A stretch of 45,293 nucleotides of DNA from a virus (taxonomy: Duplodnaviria; Heunggongvirae; Uroviricota; Caudoviricetes): the IMG/VR virus record IMGVR_UViG_2571042653_000011; one strand, written 5' to 3'. The notes beneath the pieces were generated by a model, which was not told where the DNA came from, made no database searches, and saw only the letters and a list, made by a program, of their open reading frames with translations. Both the position numbers and the translations under genes were made by a program. Position 1 is the first letter of the stretch, and the number at the start of each line of letters is the position of its first letter. Below, one piece after another: positions 1 to 18,420 of the stretch.

Positions 1-573
1 ATGTTTTGCGAAGAAAAAGTAGCTCAAATGGCTGCATACCTACTTCTTAAGCGAGGTGGGCGCATGGCATATCTGAAATTGATGAAGCTGCTCTATCTGT
101 CTAACCGCAAGTCGATTTTGAAGCATGGCAGGATGATCGGCGAAGATAGCCTTTACTCTATGAAATTTGGTCCAGTCATGTCGAATACGCTGAACTTGAT
201 TCGTGGTAAGGCTGAAGGTATTGGTGACTACTGGTACAACCTGATAGAGACGAACGGGCATGATGTGTTGTTGCGTTCAGATCCGAGGGAAATGGATGCA
301 GACGAGGTCTTTGATGAGTTGAGCCGTGCAGATATCCGGATTTTAGATGAAATCTATTCTCTGTATGGGCATATGAACCGATTTGATCTCGCAAACATGA
401 CGCATTTAGAAAGCGTTTGTCCAGAGTGGCACAATCCTGGCAATTCTCGTAAGCCTATAGACCTGAAAGAAATGCTGATCAGTGAGGGTAAAAGCGAGGA
501 TGAGGCTAATCGTATAATTGGCAAAATGGAAGAATCTCAGAAACTTAAGGAATTTTCTTTGCAATTATCATGA
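1..573 (+). CDS. Panacea (DUF4065)-like domain protein, putative antitoxin-type component
   Basis: 190-aa ORF starting at the window edge; motifs KLMKLLYL and KFGPV resemble the DUF4065/Panacea (SocA/GepA-like) family as recalled; stop overlaps the next ORF's start (ATGA). May be 5'-truncated by the window. Confidence 0.5.
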   Translation: MFCEEKVAQMAAYLLLKRGGRMAYLKLMKLLYLSNRKSILKHGRMIGEDSLYSMKFGPVMSNTLNLIRGKAEGIGDYWYNLIETNGHDVLLRSDPREMDADEVFDELSRADIRILDEIYSLYGHMNRFDLANMTHLESVCPEWHNPGNSRKPIDLKEMLISEGKSEDEANRIIGKMEESQKLKEFSLQLS

Positions 574-13498: not shown

Positions 13499-13515
13499 TT
13501 TTGTGGAGAACGTTG

Positions 13516-13881
13516 ATGCGTGATATTCAAATGGTTCTTGAACGTTGGGGGGCATGGGTGGCAAATAATCACGAGGATGTCACCTGGTCGTCTATTGCTG
13601 CAGGATTTAAAGGACTAATCCCTTCAAAAGTAAAATCCCGCCCGCAATGTTGTGACGATGATGCGATGATCATTTGTGGGTGCATGGCTCGCCTGAAAAA
13701 GAACAACAGCGATTTGCACGATTTATTAGTGGATTATTATGTAGGTGGTATGACGTTTATGGCGCTTGCCCGTAAACATGGGCGTTCTGATTGCTGGGTT
13801 GGGCGTTTATTGCAAAAGGCTGAAGGTGTAGTTGATGGCATGTTAATGATGTTAGAAATTGAGCTAGAGATGGATCGTTAG
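13516..13881 (+). CDS. Late-gene antitermination protein Q-like
   Basis: 121 aa from ATG 13516 (GGAGAA upstream); cysteine-rich segment ([16 protein letters not shown]); last gene of the early-right operon before the late region. Confidence 0.55.
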
Positions 13882-13965: not shown

Positions 13966-14412
13966 TTAAGGTTTTAATTCATCAAGACGTTGTTGGATAG
14001 TGTTTTTGCTTGCGTTGTCTGTTATAGCCATTTGTTGTACTTGCCCCATTGCCATTTGAGTTTCCATCCACATATCGGCCCACACTTTTGTATCGTTATT
14101 AACTTGAGCGATAGTAAATCTGACTTTTGATACCGGGGTTGTTGAATAGGCATTGCCGATTAACATTTGTCCAAAAACAGCAGACCCGCCTTCCAGTTCT
14201 TTACCACATATAACACTGCTGTTATCAGCGTTGTAAATTATCAACCCTCTACTATTGCAGTAATTCACAAGGGCATCTTTGACTTTATCTTTTGTCGTAT
14301 TTTGATAAACCCCCTCAGGTTTTCCTGATTGAGTTTTTTTTATCAATGGTACGGAAGAAGTACAACCTGAAATGATAGTTGCGCTAAGTAATAGTACAGT
14401 CATTTTATTCAT
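13966..14412 (-). CDS. Lipoprotein (moron, unknown function)
   Basis: 148 aa; signal peptide with lipobox LLSATIISGC; opposite strand to flanking genes; AT-rich by eye. Confidence 0.6.
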   Translation of the reverse strand: MNKMTVLLLSATIISGCTSSVPLIKKTQSGKPEGVYQNTTKDKVKDALVNYCNSRGLIIYNADNSSVICGKELEGGSAVFGQMLIGNAYSTTPVSKVRFTIAQVNNDTKVWADMWMETQMAMGQVQQMAITDNASKNTIQQRLDELKP

Positions 14413-14658: not shown

Positions 14659-14886
14659 ATGTTAACCAGAAGGGAAAAAGACATGCTAAAACAGCAAGAT
14701 ATGACAGAAACCGCCGCCGCAGTCCTTCATTTCTTACCTGCTGACAAGTGGGTAACGCCACGCATGATGACGAGAACTACCGGAGTAAGCGAAGCCCGGT
14801 GCCAGTTAATACTGACTCAGTTAGTTCTGGCGGGTCTGGCGAAGGATAACGGCGGATACGGGAATAAATTCAGACGCTGCCAGTAA
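14659..14886 (+). CDS. Hypothetical small protein (75 aa)
   Basis: ORF between Q and the methyltransferase; alternative ATG at 14683 has a better SD-like purine run. Confidence 0.4.
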   Translation: MLTRREKDMLKQQDMTETAAAVLHFLPADKWVTPRMMTRTTGVSEARCQLILTQLVLAGLAKDNGGYGNKFRRCQ

Positions 14887-15036: not shown

Positions 15037-16089
15037 ATGAAAAATACTGTAAAAATAAACAGTGTTGATTTAATCAACGCTGATTGCCTGCATTTTATTC
15101 AGTCCCTGCCTGATGATTCCATTGACCTGATTGTTACCGATCCGCCGTACTTCAAGGTGAAACCCAACGGCTGGGACAATCAGTGGAAAGGGGACGAAGA
15201 TTACCTTAAGTGGCTGGACCACTGTCTGGCCCAGTTCTGGCGGGTGTTAAAACCTGCCGGAAGCCTTTACCTGTTCTGTGGGCATCGCCTGGCATCTGAT
15301 ATTGAGATCATGATGCGTGAACGTTTCAACGTGCTTAACCATATCATCTGGGCGAAGCCGTCCGGACGTTGGAATGGGTGTAATAAAGAAAGTCTGCGCG
15401 CATATTTTCCTGCCACAGAGCGCGTTCTGTTTGCTGAACATTACCAGGGGCCATATCGCGGCAAAAGTGACGGCTATGCGGCAAAAGAAAGGGAACTCAA
15501 ACAGCACATAATGGCACCGCTGATATCGTATTTCAGGGATGCTCGTGCCGAACTGGGTATAACGGCAAAACAAATTGCCGAAGCCACAGGTAAGAAAAAT
15601 ATGGTTTCCCACTGGTTTGGTGCCAGTCAGTGGCAGTTGCCGAATGAGGCTGACTATCGGAAGTTACAGGCACTGTTTTCCCGTATAGCGGCAGAGAAGT
15701 TTCAGGAACAACAACTGGAACAACCACACCACCAGCTGGTGGCATCTTATGATTCACTGAATCGCAAATATTCTGAATTGCTGGATGAGTTTAAATCTCT
15801 CCGGCGCTATTTCTCCGTATCAGTCTCCGTGCCTTATACCGATGTCTGGATGCATAAACCCGTTCAGTTCTACCCGGGTAAACATCCGTGTGAGAAACCG
15901 GCGGATATGCTCAGGCAAATAATCAATGCCAGTAGTCGACCTGGTGATCTGGTTGCTGATTTTTTTATGGGATCCGGTTCCACAATAAAAGCAGCAATGG
16001 CGCTGGGGCGTCGGGCCTTAGGTGTTGAGCTTGAGTCAGAGCGGTTTAACCAGACAGTGAAAGAGATAAACGAGCTGGTGGGGAAATAA
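15037..16089 (+). CDS. DNA methyltransferase, beta class (N6-adenine or N4-cytosine), orphan, in the late region
   Basis: 350 aa; DPPY motif (IVTDPPYF) near the N-terminus and SAM-binding FxGxG (FFMGSGST) near the C-terminus; no cognate nuclease nearby. Confidence 0.8.
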
Positions 16090-16156
16090 TCTGGTGGCCA
16101 CGTCAGGTGGCCTTTTTATTTCCATTACACAGCACCCGCATCTGCGAGGTGGGGTT

Positions 16157-16372
16157 ATGAAATCCATGGATAAGTTAACAACGGGTGTCGCCTATGGCAC
16201 CTCCGCAGGCAGTGCTGGCTACTGGTTTTTACAGTGGCTTGATCAGGTCAGTCCGTCACAGTGGGCTGCGATTGGTGTACTGGGGAGTCTGGTTCTGGGC
16301 TTCCTGACTTATCTGACAAATCTGTACTTCAAAATCAGAGAAGACAAGCGTAAGGCTGCACGGGGAGAGTAA
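16157..16372 (+). CDS. Pinholin (phage 21 S-like class II holin)
   Basis: 71 aa from ATG 16157 with dual-start MKSM motif; two hydrophobic segments; closely resembles the phage 21 S protein as recalled. Confidence 0.8.
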
Positions 16373-16376
16373 TTCA

Positions 16377-16928
16377 ATGACTCAAAACTATGAACTGATT
16401 GTGAAAGGGATCCGCAATTTTGAGAATAAAGTTACGGTAACTTTAGCGTTACGGGACAAAAAACGCTTTGACGGTGAAATTTTTGACCTGGACATCTCGC
16501 TGGACCGTGTTGAAGGTGCCGCGCTGGAGTTTTATGAGGCAGCAGCCAGAATGAGCATCAGACAGGTCTTCCTGGATGTTGCTGCCGGGTTATGTGAAGG
16601 GGATGAGCAGTCGCCGGAAAAGCGCCCCGTAATTTTAGAGGCGCAGAATGTATGGATAACCTACAAAGGAAAGCTACCGGGAAGAATTACTGGTTCTCTG
16701 AAGACGCCACCGACGGCATTGCGGTCAGAAAAAGATGATATTGAATCGCCCATTGAAAAACTGGAGGGCAGCGTCGCTGATCTGAATAAAAAATTGTCGG
16801 TGCTGATCCCTTCTGAAGATGAAAAAAAACGCCGCGATGAGCAGTTTGCGGCGTTTTACGATTATTGCATTGAAGTTACTCGCAGGAATTTTGTGAAGAT
16901 TTTTGAGGAGGGTAAATCTCTTCAGTAA
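16377..16928 (+). CDS. Hypothetical protein inserted between holin and endolysin
   Basis: 183 aa; SD GGGGAGAG before the ATG; no family recognised; 3' end overlaps a convergent ORF by 53 nt. Confidence 0.5.
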   Translation: MTQNYELIVKGIRNFENKVTVTLALRDKKRFDGEIFDLDISLDRVEGAALEFYEAAARMSIRQVFLDVAAGLCEGDEQSPEKRPVILEAQNVWITYKGKLPGRITGSLKTPPTALRSEKDDIESPIEKLEGSVADLNKKLSVLIPSEDEKKRRDEQFAAFYDYCIEVTRRNFVKIFEEGKSLQ

Positions 16929-17136
16929 GCTTAATGGCGGACGCTGCAATTAATTCAGGAAGGTCCGCAAGGTCATCTGTCAGTGGATATGATGAAAAAT
17001 CGGCGGCAGTTCTGTTAAGAAGCGCTTTAACTAATTCCTTTTCCTTCTCCGGCAACAAGTTGATTAGAGCTACGACTGCTTGCCTGAGTGCGATTAAATC
17101 AGCAAAAGTTTGTTTTGGTAGATTTGTGTAATCCAT
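16876..17136 (-). CDS. Hypothetical protein, convergent with the inserted gene
   Basis: 86 aa from ATG 17136 with SD AGAGGTGA; acidic and Leu-rich; no family recognised. Confidence 0.35.
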   Translation of the reverse strand: MDYTNLPKQTFADLIALRQAVVALINLLPEKEKELVKALLNRTAADFSSYPLTDDLADLPELIAASAIKLTEEIYPPQKSSQNSCE

Positions 17137-17249
17137 AGTCACCTCTGTGTTTATCAGATTGACATCCTCCTCCCGCCAGTGCCCATCACTGGTGAGGTAA
17201 GATTTAACATATCCGGGGATTTGAAGCCGATAAATCCTGATAAATATCC

Positions 17250-17783
17250 ATGAACGTAAAAATCAGATACAGCCTGTCGGCTGCTGTTCTGGCACTGATT
17301 GCCGCCAGTGCTCCTGCCCCTGACATTCTCGATCAGTTTCTGGATGAAAAAGAGGGGAATCACACCACTGCATACCGCGATGGCTCCGGCATATGGACCA
17401 TCTGTCGGGGAGCAACGATGGTGGACGGTAAACCTGTTATTCCGGGAATGAAACTGTCGAAGGAAAAATGCGCCCAGGTTAACGCCATTGAGCGGGATAA
17501 GGCGCTGGCATGGGTGGAGCGCAATATAAAAGTTCCACTGACCGAGCCACAGAAAGCCGGTATCGCGTCATTCTGTCCCTATAACATTGGCCCTGGTAAG
17601 TGTTTCCCGTCGACGTTTTATAAGCGGCTGAATGCCGGTGATCGTAAGGGTGCATGTGAGGCGATTCGTTGGTGGATAAAAGATGGTGGGCGCGATTGCC
17701 GCATACGTTCAAATAACTGCTATGGGCAAGTTATTCGTCGTGACCAGGAAAGCGCATTAGCCTGTTGGGGGATAGATCAGTGA
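17250..17783 (+). CDS. SAR endolysin (T4-type lysozyme, GH24)
   Basis: 177 aa; N-terminal signal-anchor-release segment ([17 protein letters not shown]); catalytic E...D...T spacing ([18 protein letters not shown]). Confidence 0.85.
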
Positions 17784-18247
17784 GCAGAGTCGCCGCGATT
17801 ATTTATGCTCTGGTTATCTGCATCATCGTCTGCCTGTCGTGGGCGGTCAATCATTACCGTGATAACGCCATCGCCTATAAAGAACAGCGTGATAAAAAAG
17901 TCAGTGAGCTGAAGCAGGCGACCGCCACCATTACTGACATGCAGCAGCGCCAGCGTGCTGCTGATGCACTCGATGCTAAATACACGAAGGAGTTAGCTGA
18001 TGCGAAAGCTAAAAATGATGCTCTTCGGCGCAAGCTTGATAATGGTGGTCGGGTGTTCGTCAAAGGAAAATGCCCTGTGCCATCCTCAGCCGAAACCTCC
18101 AGCGCCTCCGGCATGGGCAATGATGCCACCGTCGAACTCTCTCCAGTTGCTGGACGAAACGTTCTCGGTATCCGGGACGGAATTATCCGCGACCAAACAG
18201 CACTGAGAACGCTTCAGGAATACATCAGGACGCAATGCCTTCGATGA
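17765..18247 (+). CDS. Spanin inner-membrane subunit Rz
   Basis: N-terminal TM helix then coiled-coil; likely GTG start at 17780 overlapping the endolysin stop; contains Rz1 in the +1 frame. Confidence 0.7.
18000..18206 (+). CDS. Spanin outer-membrane lipoprotein Rz1 (embedded in Rz)
   Basis: 68 aa; lipobox VVGCSS; proline-rich; SD AAGGAG 8 nt before the ATG; fully inside Rz in another frame. Confidence 0.7.
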
Positions 18248-18420
18248 TAGCGATAATTTTACTCATCATCCTTCACATCTGGCTCTGTAGACAGGATGGT
18301 GATCACTTCTGGAGTGAATCCAGATTAAACATCTCATTGCTGATGCTTGATATTGAGCATCTTGCGCGCGGTAAGGGGCTGCGTTGAGATAAGAGCCAGT
18401 CATTACAAATACCAGGATTT

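What the first reader, a model, noticed from the sequence alone, without database searches (positions are those of the whole stretch)
16377..17136. Two unknown convergent genes inserted inside the lysis cassette between pinholin and SAR endolysin
In phage 21-type lysis cassettes the holin and endolysin genes are normally adjacent. Here about 870 bp separates them and holds a 183-aa ORF (+) and an 86-aa ORF (-) whose 3' ends overlap by 53 nt; both have credible SD sequences and neither matches a family I recognise. A late-expressed insert here could modulate lysis timing or act as a defence or anti-defence cargo.
Basis: partly seen in the sequence, partly recalled or inferred. Interest (0 to 1): 0.65.

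Follow-up and report, generated by a model that had tools for sequence, protein, structure and literature searches.

The report
YdfR gene plus reverse-facing cargo gene
The gap between the holin and endolysin genes of this E. coli prophage holds a common but poorly understood phage gene (ydfR family) and a small, oppositely oriented accessory gene of unknown function, at a position where related phages carry other small genes; the arrangement is ordinary, but the position looks like an undescribed accessory-gene slot.

Summary
A 183-aa ORF (+, 16377-16928) and an 86-aa ORF (-, 17136-16876) overlap by 53 nt in the 877-bp gap between a phage-21-type holin and a SAR lysozyme.

The claim that neither matches a family is wrong. 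The 183-aa protein is a YdfR/DUF1327 protein (141 bits against a cut-off of 25). E. coli K-12 prophage Qin has ydfR in the same slot (essQ-ydfR-rrrQ), and a 2026 paper reports that K-12 YdfR residues 1-72 bind the catalytic half of RNase E. Here that core carries a 71-residue helical tail.

The 86-aa ORF (phrog_2572, "hypothetical") is a real gene. A 40%-identical 93-aa homologue at the same position gives dN/dS of about 0.35.

It reads as a self-contained moron, with these parts:
- a conserved promoter-like TTTATC-N17-TATGTT next to the R start;
- a Shine-Dalgarno (SD) sequence;
- a 10-bp hairpin plus T8 terminator buried in the ydfR tail.

Among 105 related viral contigs, 31 have S and R adjacent and 74 carry ydfR. 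Of those 74, 42 also carry a reverse gene from at least 6 unrelated families. The promoter motif is exact in 40/42 of these, against 2/32 without a reverse gene.

The function of the 86-aa protein is unknown: no family, defence or fold match. The arrangement is common, found in 314/5426 complete E. coli genomes.

The parts
16157..16372 (+). Class II (phage 21 S-type) holin with an MKSM dual start; left border of the slot
   Evidence: PF04971 at 3.3e-35. RefSeq twin annotated as 'class II holin family protein'.
16377..16928 (+). ydfR-long: 183-aa YdfR/DUF1327 family protein, in the late operon, 4 nt after the S stop
   Evidence: PF07041 at 141 bits; phrog_2091 matched 1-183 of 183. Residues 1-74 are 80% identical to K-12 YdfR. 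PGAP annotates only codons 1-112, as a pseudogene.
16377..16595 (+). YdfR N-domain (residues 1-73): three beta-strands plus a long helix. In K-12 YdfR this is the part reported to bind RNase E residues 1-597.
   Evidence: AF2 block pLDDT 69-87. PMC13232886. Homology with K-12 ends at about codon 70.
16596..16712 (+). Conserved YdfR segment (residues 74-112), nearly invariant in the family but modelled with low confidence
   Evidence: Alignment A3. pN 0.045-0.057. pLDDT below 50. 100% identical to the 116-aa YdfR forms up to residue 112.
16713..16925 (+). Modular C-terminal tail (residues 113-183), predicted helical. It is absent from the 103-116-aa YdfR forms and continues into a further domain in the 296-aa forms.
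   Evidence: dN/dS 0.45. Codon score +0.47 bits per codon. Helices at 123-141 and 147-182, with low pLDDT.
16822..16857 (-). Intrinsic-terminator-like hairpin for the minus-strand gene. Arms are 16826-16835 and 16848-16857 (10 bp, of which 6 are G-C), the loop is 12 nt, and a run of 8 T follows on the minus strand. It starts 18 nt after the rev86 stop and lies inside ydfR codons KKRRDEQFAAFY.
   Evidence: Inverted repeat I7, 100% complementary. Minimum free energy of the 71-nt stretch -16.8 kcal/mol, z -2.4. Intact in L002 and L014, which have reverse genes. The left arm is deleted in the 296-aa form, which has no reverse gene.
16876..17136 (-). rev86: 86-aa acidic (net about -5), three-helix, cytoplasmic protein of unknown function (phrog_2572; WP_001306174.1)
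   Evidence: Homologous 93-aa genes sit in the same slot with dN/dS 0.35. An exhaustive HMM search finds only this small family.
17140..17145 (-). Shine-Dalgarno GAGGTG, 3 nt upstream of the rev86 ATG
   Evidence: Sequence.
17176..17192 (.). Inverted repeat CCAGTG-N5-CACTGG in the predicted rev86 5' UTR, which is also the R leader on the + strand. It is present upstream of several different reverse genes. Its role is unknown.
   Evidence: No covariation support.
17206..17234 (-). Promoter-like element for the reverse gene: -35 TTTATC (17234-17229), 17-nt spacer, -10 TATGTT (17211-17206). It begins 15 nt from the R start codon and points away from R.
   Evidence: Exact in 40/42 loci with a reverse gene (6 unrelated gene families) against 2/32 ydfR loci without one. 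Among 16 unique sequences, variant counts are 1 (-35), 44 (spacer), 2 (-10) and 116 (next 20 nt). Only 7/12 match to consensus, so the 9/12 scan did not report it.
17250..17783 (+). SAR-type lysozyme R; right border of the slot. It has no SD (GATAAATATCCATG) and is not coupled to ydfR here.
   Evidence: PF00959 at 2.6e-24. Sequence. In K-12 the ydfR stop overlaps the rrrQ ATG.

Best explanation
The region is the accessory slot of a phage-21-type lysis cassette. It holds two independent units, not one insert.

(1) ydfR-long is a late-operon gene transcribed with S and R from the Q-antiterminated late promoter. Its N-terminal beta3-alpha domain is the YdfR/DUF1327 core. By homology to K-12 YdfR, this core most likely binds the catalytic half of RNase E and possibly RNA, so the protein plausibly adjusts RNA decay or processing late in infection. 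A swappable helical tail is attached to it.

(2) rev86 is a classical moron placed head-on against the late operon. It has its own weak sigma-70-type promoter abutting the R start, a 5' UTR of about 60 nt, an SD, an 86-codon ORF and an intrinsic terminator embedded in the ydfR tail. The 53-nt overlap arises because the ydfR frame reads through that terminator into the 3' end of rev86. Related phages use the same promoter-bearing position for at least six unrelated small reverse genes, so this is a cargo-exchange slot. rev86 is therefore most likely made from the prophage, independently of Q, as a small soluble protein-binding factor acting in host or phage-phage conflict.

Shown: gene reality, family membership, modular mosaicism, and the association of the promoter motif and terminator with reverse genes.
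Inferred: promoter activity, expression in lysogens, RNase E binding by this YdfR variant, and any phenotype.
For: YdfR membership and slot:
- PF07041 at 141 bits and phrog_2091.
- K-12 essQ-ydfR-rrrQ in the same order.
- 80% identity to K-12 YdfR over residues 1-74.
- PMC13232886 reports that YdfR 1-72 interacts with Rne 1-597 by BACTH and co-purification, and that RNA co-purifies.
- AF2 gives a confident beta3-alpha N-domain.

The tail is coding and modular.

rev86 is a real gene:
- full-length phrog_2572 match;
- 314/5426 genomes, always annotated as a CDS;
- the exact protein on at least 1000 contigs;
- rev93 homologues with dN/dS 0.35;
- the best of six frames.

Moron anatomy:
- hairpin plus T8, 18 nt after the stop, lost in the 296-aa form without a reverse gene;
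- the TTTATC-N17-TATGTT association, 40/42 against 2/32, with variable spacers;
- the 116-aa form without a reverse gene retains a homologous remnant in which -10 is CAGGTT;
- GC 0.43-0.45 against 0.50-0.53 in the flanks.

Slot behaviour: 31 loci S-R adjacent, 74 with ydfR, 42 with reverse genes of at least 6 families. The genes assort independently of the ydfR tails.

Cassettes with rev86 work: they occur in isolated plaque-forming phages 2H10, PhiR63_1, PhiR5_1 and PhiR12_x.
Against: - No expression data of any kind.
- The promoter matches consensus at only 7/12 and fell below the scan threshold.
- Its -35 overlaps the invariant R translation-initiation region, so only the -10 conservation is independent evidence.
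- The loci are not phylogenetically independent. By arrangement class the contrast is about 10 classes against 2 of 7.
- rev86 codon usage is only neutral, +0.01 bits per codon. Within-clade dN/dS is 0.6 on 12 substitutions.
- Terminator-like hairpins are clear for only some reverse genes (window, L002, L056), not all.
- RNase E binding was shown only for the K-12 103-aa protein, and overexpressing it barely changed the transcriptome.
- rev86 has no informative family, defence or fold match, so its assigned role is inference from position alone.
Confidence: 0.6

Rival explanations
1. Lysis-timing module. One or both proteins act on the pinholin or SAR endolysin, as an antiholin, a releasin-type factor or an endolysin regulator, and change lysis time or burst size.
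For: The position is inside the lysis cassette, and ydfR is tightly packed after S (4-nt gap). The PMC13232886 discussion cites a screen linking ydfR to envelope integrity. The inserted reverse gene uncouples R from ydfR and leaves R without an SD, which could lower or delay R synthesis.
Against: There is no match to any lysis-category PHROG or Pfam lysis family. Neither protein has a transmembrane segment or signal sequence, so both are predicted soluble. 31/105 cassettes with a holin at least 90% identical work without either gene. rev86 is oriented against late transcription. The reverse genes are interchangeable and unrelated, which fits accessory genes better than a tuned lysis component.
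Confidence: 0.15
2. Decay products. The 183-aa ORF is a disrupted ydfR (PGAP's reading) and the 86-aa ORF is a non-functional or spurious ORF in leftover DNA.
For: PGAP marks ydfR as a pseudogene missing its C-terminus. rev86 has neutral codon usage and within-clade dN/dS of about 0.6. Truncated and frameshifted copies exist (P0012, P0016, P0018 and the 51-61-aa cluster members).
Against: The tail has dN/dS 0.45 and the best codon score in the region, and the same tail occurs in 183-, 211- and 296-aa proteins. rev86 and rev93 conserve the frame, position and orientation at 40% identity with dN/dS 0.35. The exact sequences recur on hundreds to over 1000 contigs and in viable phages.
Confidence: 0.1
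3. Antisense-RNA device. The function lies in the minus-strand transcript, which overlaps the ydfR 3' end and collides with late transcription, damping ydfR or R expression or leaky lysis-gene read-through. The ORF is secondary.
For: The geometry is convergent with a 53-nt overlap. The promoter motif is conserved irrespective of which ORF follows. The hairpin is bidirectional in shape, with an A-run on one side and a T-run on the other.
Against: Each reverse gene keeps an intact ORF of 70-233 codons. rev86 and rev93 show protein-level constraint. The terminator would stop the transcript inside the ydfR tail, well short of S. There is no Rfam match and no conserved RNA structure.
Confidence: 0.08
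4. Cognate pair. The YdfR tail and rev86 form a two-component system, such as effector and inhibitor or toxin and antidote, kept together by their overlap.
For: rev86 occurrences checked lie next to a long-tailed ydfR, and the intact ones overlap it by 53 nt.
Against: The rev93 homologues pair with a ydfR tail that has no detectable similarity to this one. The same KKRRDEQFAAFYDY tail pairs with the unrelated 210/233-aa and 104-aa reverse genes, or with none. The overlap is explained by read-through into the reverse-gene module.
Confidence: 0.07

Closest known systems
ydfR (b1555) of cryptic prophage Qin, E. coli K-12 (essQ-ydfR-rrrQ); Pfam DUF1327 / NCBI 'YdfR family protein'
   Same: Same family (PF07041). 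Same position and orientation between a P21-type holin and a lysozyme, with the same 4-nt spacing after the holin. The N-terminal 74 residues are 80% identical.
   Different: K-12 YdfR is 103 aa, diverges after about residue 70, and its stop overlaps the rrrQ start. Here the protein has the conserved 74-112 segment plus a 71-aa tail, ends 321 nt before R, and is followed by a reverse gene.
Morons of lambdoid phages (concept of Juhala/Hendrix et al. 2000), e.g. lambda bor, which is reverse-oriented next to the lysis genes and expressed in lysogens (own knowledge)
   Same: A single small gene that is present or absent among close relatives, lies between essential late genes, has lower GC, has its own promoter-like and terminator-like signals, and faces against late transcription. 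Bor itself is annotated in reverse orientation after Rz in relative 640R1.
   Different: rev86 sits inside the S-R gap rather than after Rz. It is soluble and cytoplasmic, whereas Bor is a lipoprotein. The same promoter-bearing position is reused by at least 6 unrelated genes. Expression is not demonstrated.
[quoted passage not shown] 2022, PMC9122126)
   Same: A fixed position flanked by conserved phage genes where unrelated small cargo genes alternate among otherwise similar elements.
   Different: None of the genes found in this slot matches a known defence family (PADLOC). They are single small proteins of 70-233 aa. A defence role is untested.
Phage proteins that act on RNase E: T4 Srd, phiKZ Dip, T7 gp0.7 (own knowledge)
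Lysis accessory genes placed beside holin and endolysin genes in other phages (P1 lydB, Mu releasin gp25, P2 lysA/lysB; own knowledge, with Mu from PMC9239132 listed)
   Same: Location within a lysis cassette.
   Different: No homology. The gene is dispensable in close relatives.

Membership tests
YdfR / DUF1327 (PF07041) | Profile match above the curated threshold | tested here: met
   141 bits against a cut-off of 25, residues 1-112. phrog_2091 matched over the full length. RefSeq names it 'YdfR family protein'.
YdfR / DUF1327 (PF07041) | Encoded between a class II holin and a lysozyme in a lambdoid prophage, co-oriented with them | tested here: met
   S 16157-16372, ydfR 16377-16928, R 17250-17783. 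Same order as K-12 Qin.
YdfR / DUF1327 (PF07041) | N-terminal ~72 residues bind the RNase E catalytic half (reported for K-12 YdfR only) | not testable with these tools
   PMC13232886. This variant is 80% identical over residues 1-74.
Phage moron (autonomous accessory gene unit) | Present in some close relatives and absent in others at the same position | tested here: met
   rev86 or rev93 is present in 8 of the 74 ydfR loci surveyed. Other reverse genes occupy the slot in 34, and 32 have none.
Phage moron (autonomous accessory gene unit) | Own promoter | tested here: inconclusive
   TTTATC-N17-TATGTT is conserved with reverse genes, 40/42 against 2/32. It matches consensus at only 7/12, was not reported by the scan, and there is no expression data.
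Phage moron (autonomous accessory gene unit) | Own terminator | tested here: met
   10-bp hairpin plus T8, 18 nt after the stop. In silico only.
Phage moron (autonomous accessory gene unit) | Expressed from the repressed prophage | not testable with these tools
   Needs RNA-seq or a reporter assay in a lysogen.
Phage-21-type pinholin / SAR-endolysin cassette | S21-family class II holin with a dual start; lysozyme with an N-terminal SAR segment and an E-8-D-5-T triad; Rz/Rz1 | tested here: met
   PF04971, MKSM start. PF00959, residues 7-24 rich in Ala/Ser/Leu, E35/D44/T50 read from the sequence. Rz PF03245 and Rz1 PF06085. Pinholin and SAR behaviour themselves are inferred from family.
Known lysis-accessory families (antiholins, releasins, spanin-like) | Sequence match to a lysis-category family | tested here: not met
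   No lysis-category PHROG or Pfam hit for either ORF.
Known anti-phage defence systems (PADLOC-DB) | Profile match to a defence protein | tested here: not met
   0 families for both ORFs and for 5 alternative reverse genes.
DUF1823 (label used for rev86 in the PhiR phage records) | Pfam PF08853 match above threshold | tested here: not met
   13.1 bits against a cut-off of 25, E 0.11. The GenBank label is not supported.

The most novel reading that the evidence does not exclude
The S-R gap of phage-21-type lysis cassettes, present in most E. coli genomes, is a dedicated promoter-equipped exchange slot. A fixed outward-facing promoter beside R drives interchangeable small effector genes (rev86/93 and the 70-, 90-, 98-, 104- and 210-aa families). 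These would be new anti-defence, exclusion or host-takeover proteins expressed from the prophage. The neighbouring YdfR would be a late-acting RNase E modulator whose tails diversify in step with this traffic.
Probability: 0.3. Interest if true: 0.6.

Novelty: new member of a known kind. Interest (0 to 1): 0.38.

Why it matters
The ydfR slot lies in one of the commonest prophage modules of E. coli, including Stx-converting phages, yet none of its occupants has an established function.

Two things follow if the reading here is right.

First, a simple sequence rule (R start, then TTTATC-N17-TATGTT, then a reverse ORF) can harvest a set of small prophage-expressed proteins from thousands of genomes. 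These are good candidates for screens for exclusion, anti-defence or host-modulating activity.

Second, the YdfR/RNase E link reported in 2026 gains a natural biological setting, late phage gene expression. It also gains natural variants with no tail, a short tail or a long tail for testing.

There is a practical point for annotation as well. PGAP calls this ydfR a pseudogene. Some Stx1 phage records annotate a 263-aa ydfR read-through ORF instead of the 210/233-aa reverse gene it overlaps.

Tried and rejected
- **NCBIfam and PADLOC** for both ORFs gave nothing.
- **Pfam hints for rev86** (ABATE at 0.074, DUF1823 at 0.11) are below threshold and were rejected.
- **PDB sequence search** with the rev86 profile gave 0 hits at E of 10 or less.
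- **The exhaustive HMM search** over 1.84 billion representatives found only the small rev86/rev93 family, plus repeat-protein matches (P0177, P0179) judged compositional.
- **The genome-contig scan** found a single E. coli locus.
- **dN/dS within the rev86 clade** was uninformative, with 12 substitutions and a ratio of 0.6. It became informative only after rev93 was found.
- **Rfam** gave no family in the region or the window.
- **RNAalifold on the R leader** gave -3.5 kcal/mol with no compensatory pairs, so a conserved RNA structure does not explain the conserved -10-like block.
- **The consensus promoter scan** found no site upstream of rev86 at its 9/12 threshold. The promoter proposal rests on comparative evidence only.
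- **Similarity between the window's ydfR tail and the tail paired with rev93** was tested and none was found, so the cognate-pair idea was rejected.
- **Literature searches** for DUF1327, the accessions, PHROG ids, and lysis-cassette hotspots found nothing specific beyond PMC13232886.
Full report
**1. What is in the sequence**

The window is a lambdoid prophage. Its 100%-identical RefSeq twin is E. coli KGu016, where the prophage sits beside a truncated tRNA-dihydrouridine synthase gene. The late region reads as follows.

| Feature | Coordinates | Evidence |
|---|---|---|
| Q antiterminator | 13501-13881 | PF06530 |
| Reverse 148-aa ORF | 13966-14412 (-) | no family |
| 75-aa ORF | 14659-14886 | no family |
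| DNA methyltransferase | 15037-16089 | PF01555 |
| Terminator-like hairpin | 16096-16112 | |
| Holin S | 16157-16372 | PF04971, MKSM dual start |
| 183-aa ORF | 16377-16928 | see section 2 |
| 86-aa ORF | 17136-16876 (-) | see section 3 |
| Lysozyme R | 17250-17783 | PF00959; Ala/Ser/Leu-rich N-terminus; E35/D44/T50 |
| Rz | 17780-18247 | PF03245 |
| Rz1 | 18000-18206 | PF06085 |

**2. The plus-strand gene is a YdfR-family gene**

- It scores 141 bits on PF07041 (DUF1327; cut-off 25) over residues 1-112, and matches phrog_2091 end to end.
- E. coli K-12 prophage Qin has essQ-ydfR-rrrQ in the same order, with the same 4-nt gap after the holin.
- The first 74 residues are 80% identical to K-12 YdfR. 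DNA homology with Qin runs through S and about 70 codons of ydfR, breaks, and resumes about 10 nt before the R start.
- The only functional literature found is PMC13232886 (RNA Biol 2026). It reports that YdfR residues 1-72 interact with RNase E 1-597 in two-hybrid assays, that Rne(1-598) co-purifies with Strep-YdfR, that DNase-resistant nucleic acid co-purifies, and that overexpression barely changes the transcriptome.
- AF2 models residues 1-73 as three strands plus a long helix (block pLDDT 69-87). The rest has low confidence, with helices at 123-141 and 147-182.

The family is modular. Lengths of 103, 114-116, 176, 183, 211, 268 and 296 aa share the core and differ in the tail.

The window's protein is 100% identical to the 116-aa forms up to residue 112. 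For this reason PGAP annotates only 112 codons and flags a pseudogene. I think that flag is wrong, for three reasons:
- the tail has dN/dS of about 0.45 against distant variants, like the N-domain;
- it has the best codon-usage score in the region;
- it recurs in several architectures.

**3. The minus-strand ORF is a real gene of a small, uncharacterised family**

- It matches phrog_2572 over the full length and is annotated "hypothetical protein" (WP_001306174.1).
- Word-indexed and exhaustive profile searches find only Escherichia sequences at 85% identity or more, a truncated Salmonella relic, and a few 89-93-aa relatives.
- Within the close clade there are too few substitutions to judge: 12 substitutions, dN/dS 0.6.
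- The IMG/VR survey turned up 93-aa homologues at 40% identity, in the same place and orientation. Against these, dN/dS is 0.33-0.36 and differences by codon position are 41/25/45.
- The ORF's frame is the only open frame and the best-scoring of six, although its codon usage is merely neutral.
- AF2 gives three helices (8-26, 30-48, 56-74; pLDDT 72).
- The protein is acidic, with no hydrophobic segment.

**4. Anatomy of a moron**

A perfect 10-bp inverted repeat starts 18 nt after the rev86 stop. Its arms are 16826-16835 and 16848-16857, with 6 G-C pairs and a 12-nt loop. On the minus strand it is followed by eight T. It lies inside ydfR codons KKRRDEQFAAFY.

The hairpin is intact in relatives where a reverse gene abuts it (L002, L014). 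Its left arm is deleted in the 296-aa YdfR form, which has no reverse gene.

Upstream of rev86, the 75 nt next to R are shared by cassettes that carry quite different reverse genes. Read on the minus strand, this stretch contains TTTATC (17234-17229), a 17-nt spacer, and TATGTT (17211-17206).

**5. Survey of related cassettes**

I examined 111 IMG/VR loci, retrieved with the holin or with a divergent YdfR N-domain. Of these, 105 include an R.

| Arrangement | Loci |
|---|---|
| S and R directly adjacent (phage-21 arrangement) | 31 |
| ydfR present | 74 |
| ydfR plus a reverse ORF of at least 60 codons starting within 200 nt of R | 42 of the 74 |

The reverse genes fall into at least six unrelated families:
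- rev86/rev93;
- 70 aa;
- 90 aa;
- 98 aa;
- 104/106 aa (phrog_1853);
- 210/233 aa.

None of the alternative proteins tested hits Pfam or PADLOC; the 70-aa family was not searched.

The motif is exact in 40/42 loci with a reverse gene and relaxed in the other two. It is exact in 2/32 ydfR loci without one.

Among 16 unique sequences, variant counts are 1 in the -35, 44 in the spacer, 2 in the -10 and 116 in the next 20 nt.

The common 116-aa form without a reverse gene keeps a recognisable remnant of this region in which TATGTT has become CAGGTT.

Caveats:
- the -35 lies in the invariant R initiation region;
- the match to consensus is only 7/12, so the scan did not report it;
- the loci are not independent;
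- nothing here measures transcription.

A conserved RNA structure in the R leader does not explain the conservation.

**6. Are the two genes a pair?**

No. rev93 pairs with a ydfR tail that has no similarity to this one. This tail pairs with unrelated reverse genes or with none. The 53-nt overlap is simply the ydfR frame running through the reverse-gene module's terminator into its 3' end.

**7. How common is it?**

- Parts of the 877-bp gap match in 4328/5426 complete E. coli genomes, and 283 have 80% or more of it.
- rev86 DNA is in 314/5426 genomes.
- The exact proteins occur on at least 1000 contigs (rev86) and 267 contigs (YdfR-long).
- rev86 cassettes occur in isolated phages 2H10, PhiR63_1, PhiR5_1 and PhiR12_x, so they support lysis.

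**8. Mechanism**

Best supported, at confidence of about 0.6:
- ydfR-long is a late-operon accessory protein whose core probably binds RNase E or RNA. This is an inference from K-12.
- rev86 is an autonomous moron driven by a promoter fixed beside R, probably expressed without Q, and encoding a small soluble binding protein. Its role in conflict or host modulation is inferred from position only.

One side effect can be read directly from the sequence. In K-12 the ydfR stop overlaps the rrrQ ATG. Here R starts 321 nt after ydfR and has no SD. S-R-adjacent cassettes instead have GAGGTGAATAATG. R translation may therefore differ between the forms.

Rivals are a lysis-timing function (0.15), decay products (0.10), an antisense device (0.08) and a cognate pair (0.07).

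**9. Novelty and score**

The ydfR gene is already known as a family and in this position. rev86 is an uncharacterised member of a known kind of element, the lambdoid moron. The promoter-equipped, multi-family slot between ydfR and R was not found described in the searchable literature. It is the only moderately new point, and it rests on comparative inference. Interest is about 0.38.

Noticed in passing
L014 2541-3242 (-) (Stx1a phage Stx1_499, LC567825.1); also L098-L111: An unannotated 210/233-aa reverse ORF fills the ydfR-R gap in Stx1-type phages. The record instead annotates a 263-aa ydfR read-through ORF that overlaps it. Relatives have 140- and 187-aa ydfR versions with the same reverse ORF intact, so the 263-aa call is probably an over-extension. 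The reverse protein has no Pfam, PHROG or PADLOC hit.
   Followed up: partly
window 17236-17252 compared with L018-type loci: R has no Shine-Dalgarno sequence in ydfR-type cassettes (GATAAATATCCATG), whereas S-R-adjacent cassettes have GAGGTGAATAATG. In K-12 Qin the ydfR stop overlaps the rrrQ ATG (ATGA). That translational coupling is lost wherever a reverse gene is present.
   Followed up: partly
window 17176-17192: A perfect inverted repeat, CCAGTG-N5-CACTGG, lies between the promoter-like element and the rev86 SD. Similar repeats sit upstream of several unrelated reverse genes, while others have a different hairpin at the same place. It could be an operator or a 5' stem-loop. There is no covariation evidence.
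   Followed up: partly
window 16096-16112 (+): A strong terminator-like hairpin (GGCCAC-N5-GTGGCC followed by a T-rich tract, TTTTTATTT) lies directly between the late-operon DNA methyltransferase gene (15037-16089) and the holin start. S, ydfR and R expression would therefore depend on Q-mediated read-through of at least this site.
   Followed up: no
window 13966-14412 (-): A reverse-oriented 148-aa ORF with no Pfam match lies just downstream of Q, at the start of the late operon. Relatives carry other reverse genes at the same place: a DUF6650 protein in L015-L017 and IraM in L012. This may be a second reverse-gene slot.
   Followed up: no
window 18000-18206 (+): An embedded Rz1 lipoprotein gene (PF06085 at 3.8e-21) lies inside Rz (17780-18247). 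It is not annotated in the identical RefSeq region, which instead lists a 50-aa hypothetical at 18235-18387.
   Followed up: partly
window 1-573 (+) (from the RefSeq twin, L004 3629-4201): The window begins with a Panacea-domain protein gene next to a truncated tRNA-dihydrouridine synthase gene (possibly dusA) in the host. This may be a toxin-antitoxin-type accessory gene at the prophage end.
   Followed up: no
L013 2468-3109 (Stx2a phage Stx2_12E129_yecE): In some Stx2a phages the ydfR tail plus the C-terminal domain of the 296-aa form exists as a separate 213-aa protein without the DUF1327 core. The tail region can therefore stand alone.
   Followed up: partly
L002 3743-4003 (PhiR5_1, PV340545.1): The GenBank label 'DUF1823 containing protein' for the rev86 homologue is not supported. 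The window's rev86 scores 13 bits against the cut-off of 25 for PF08853.
   Followed up: yes
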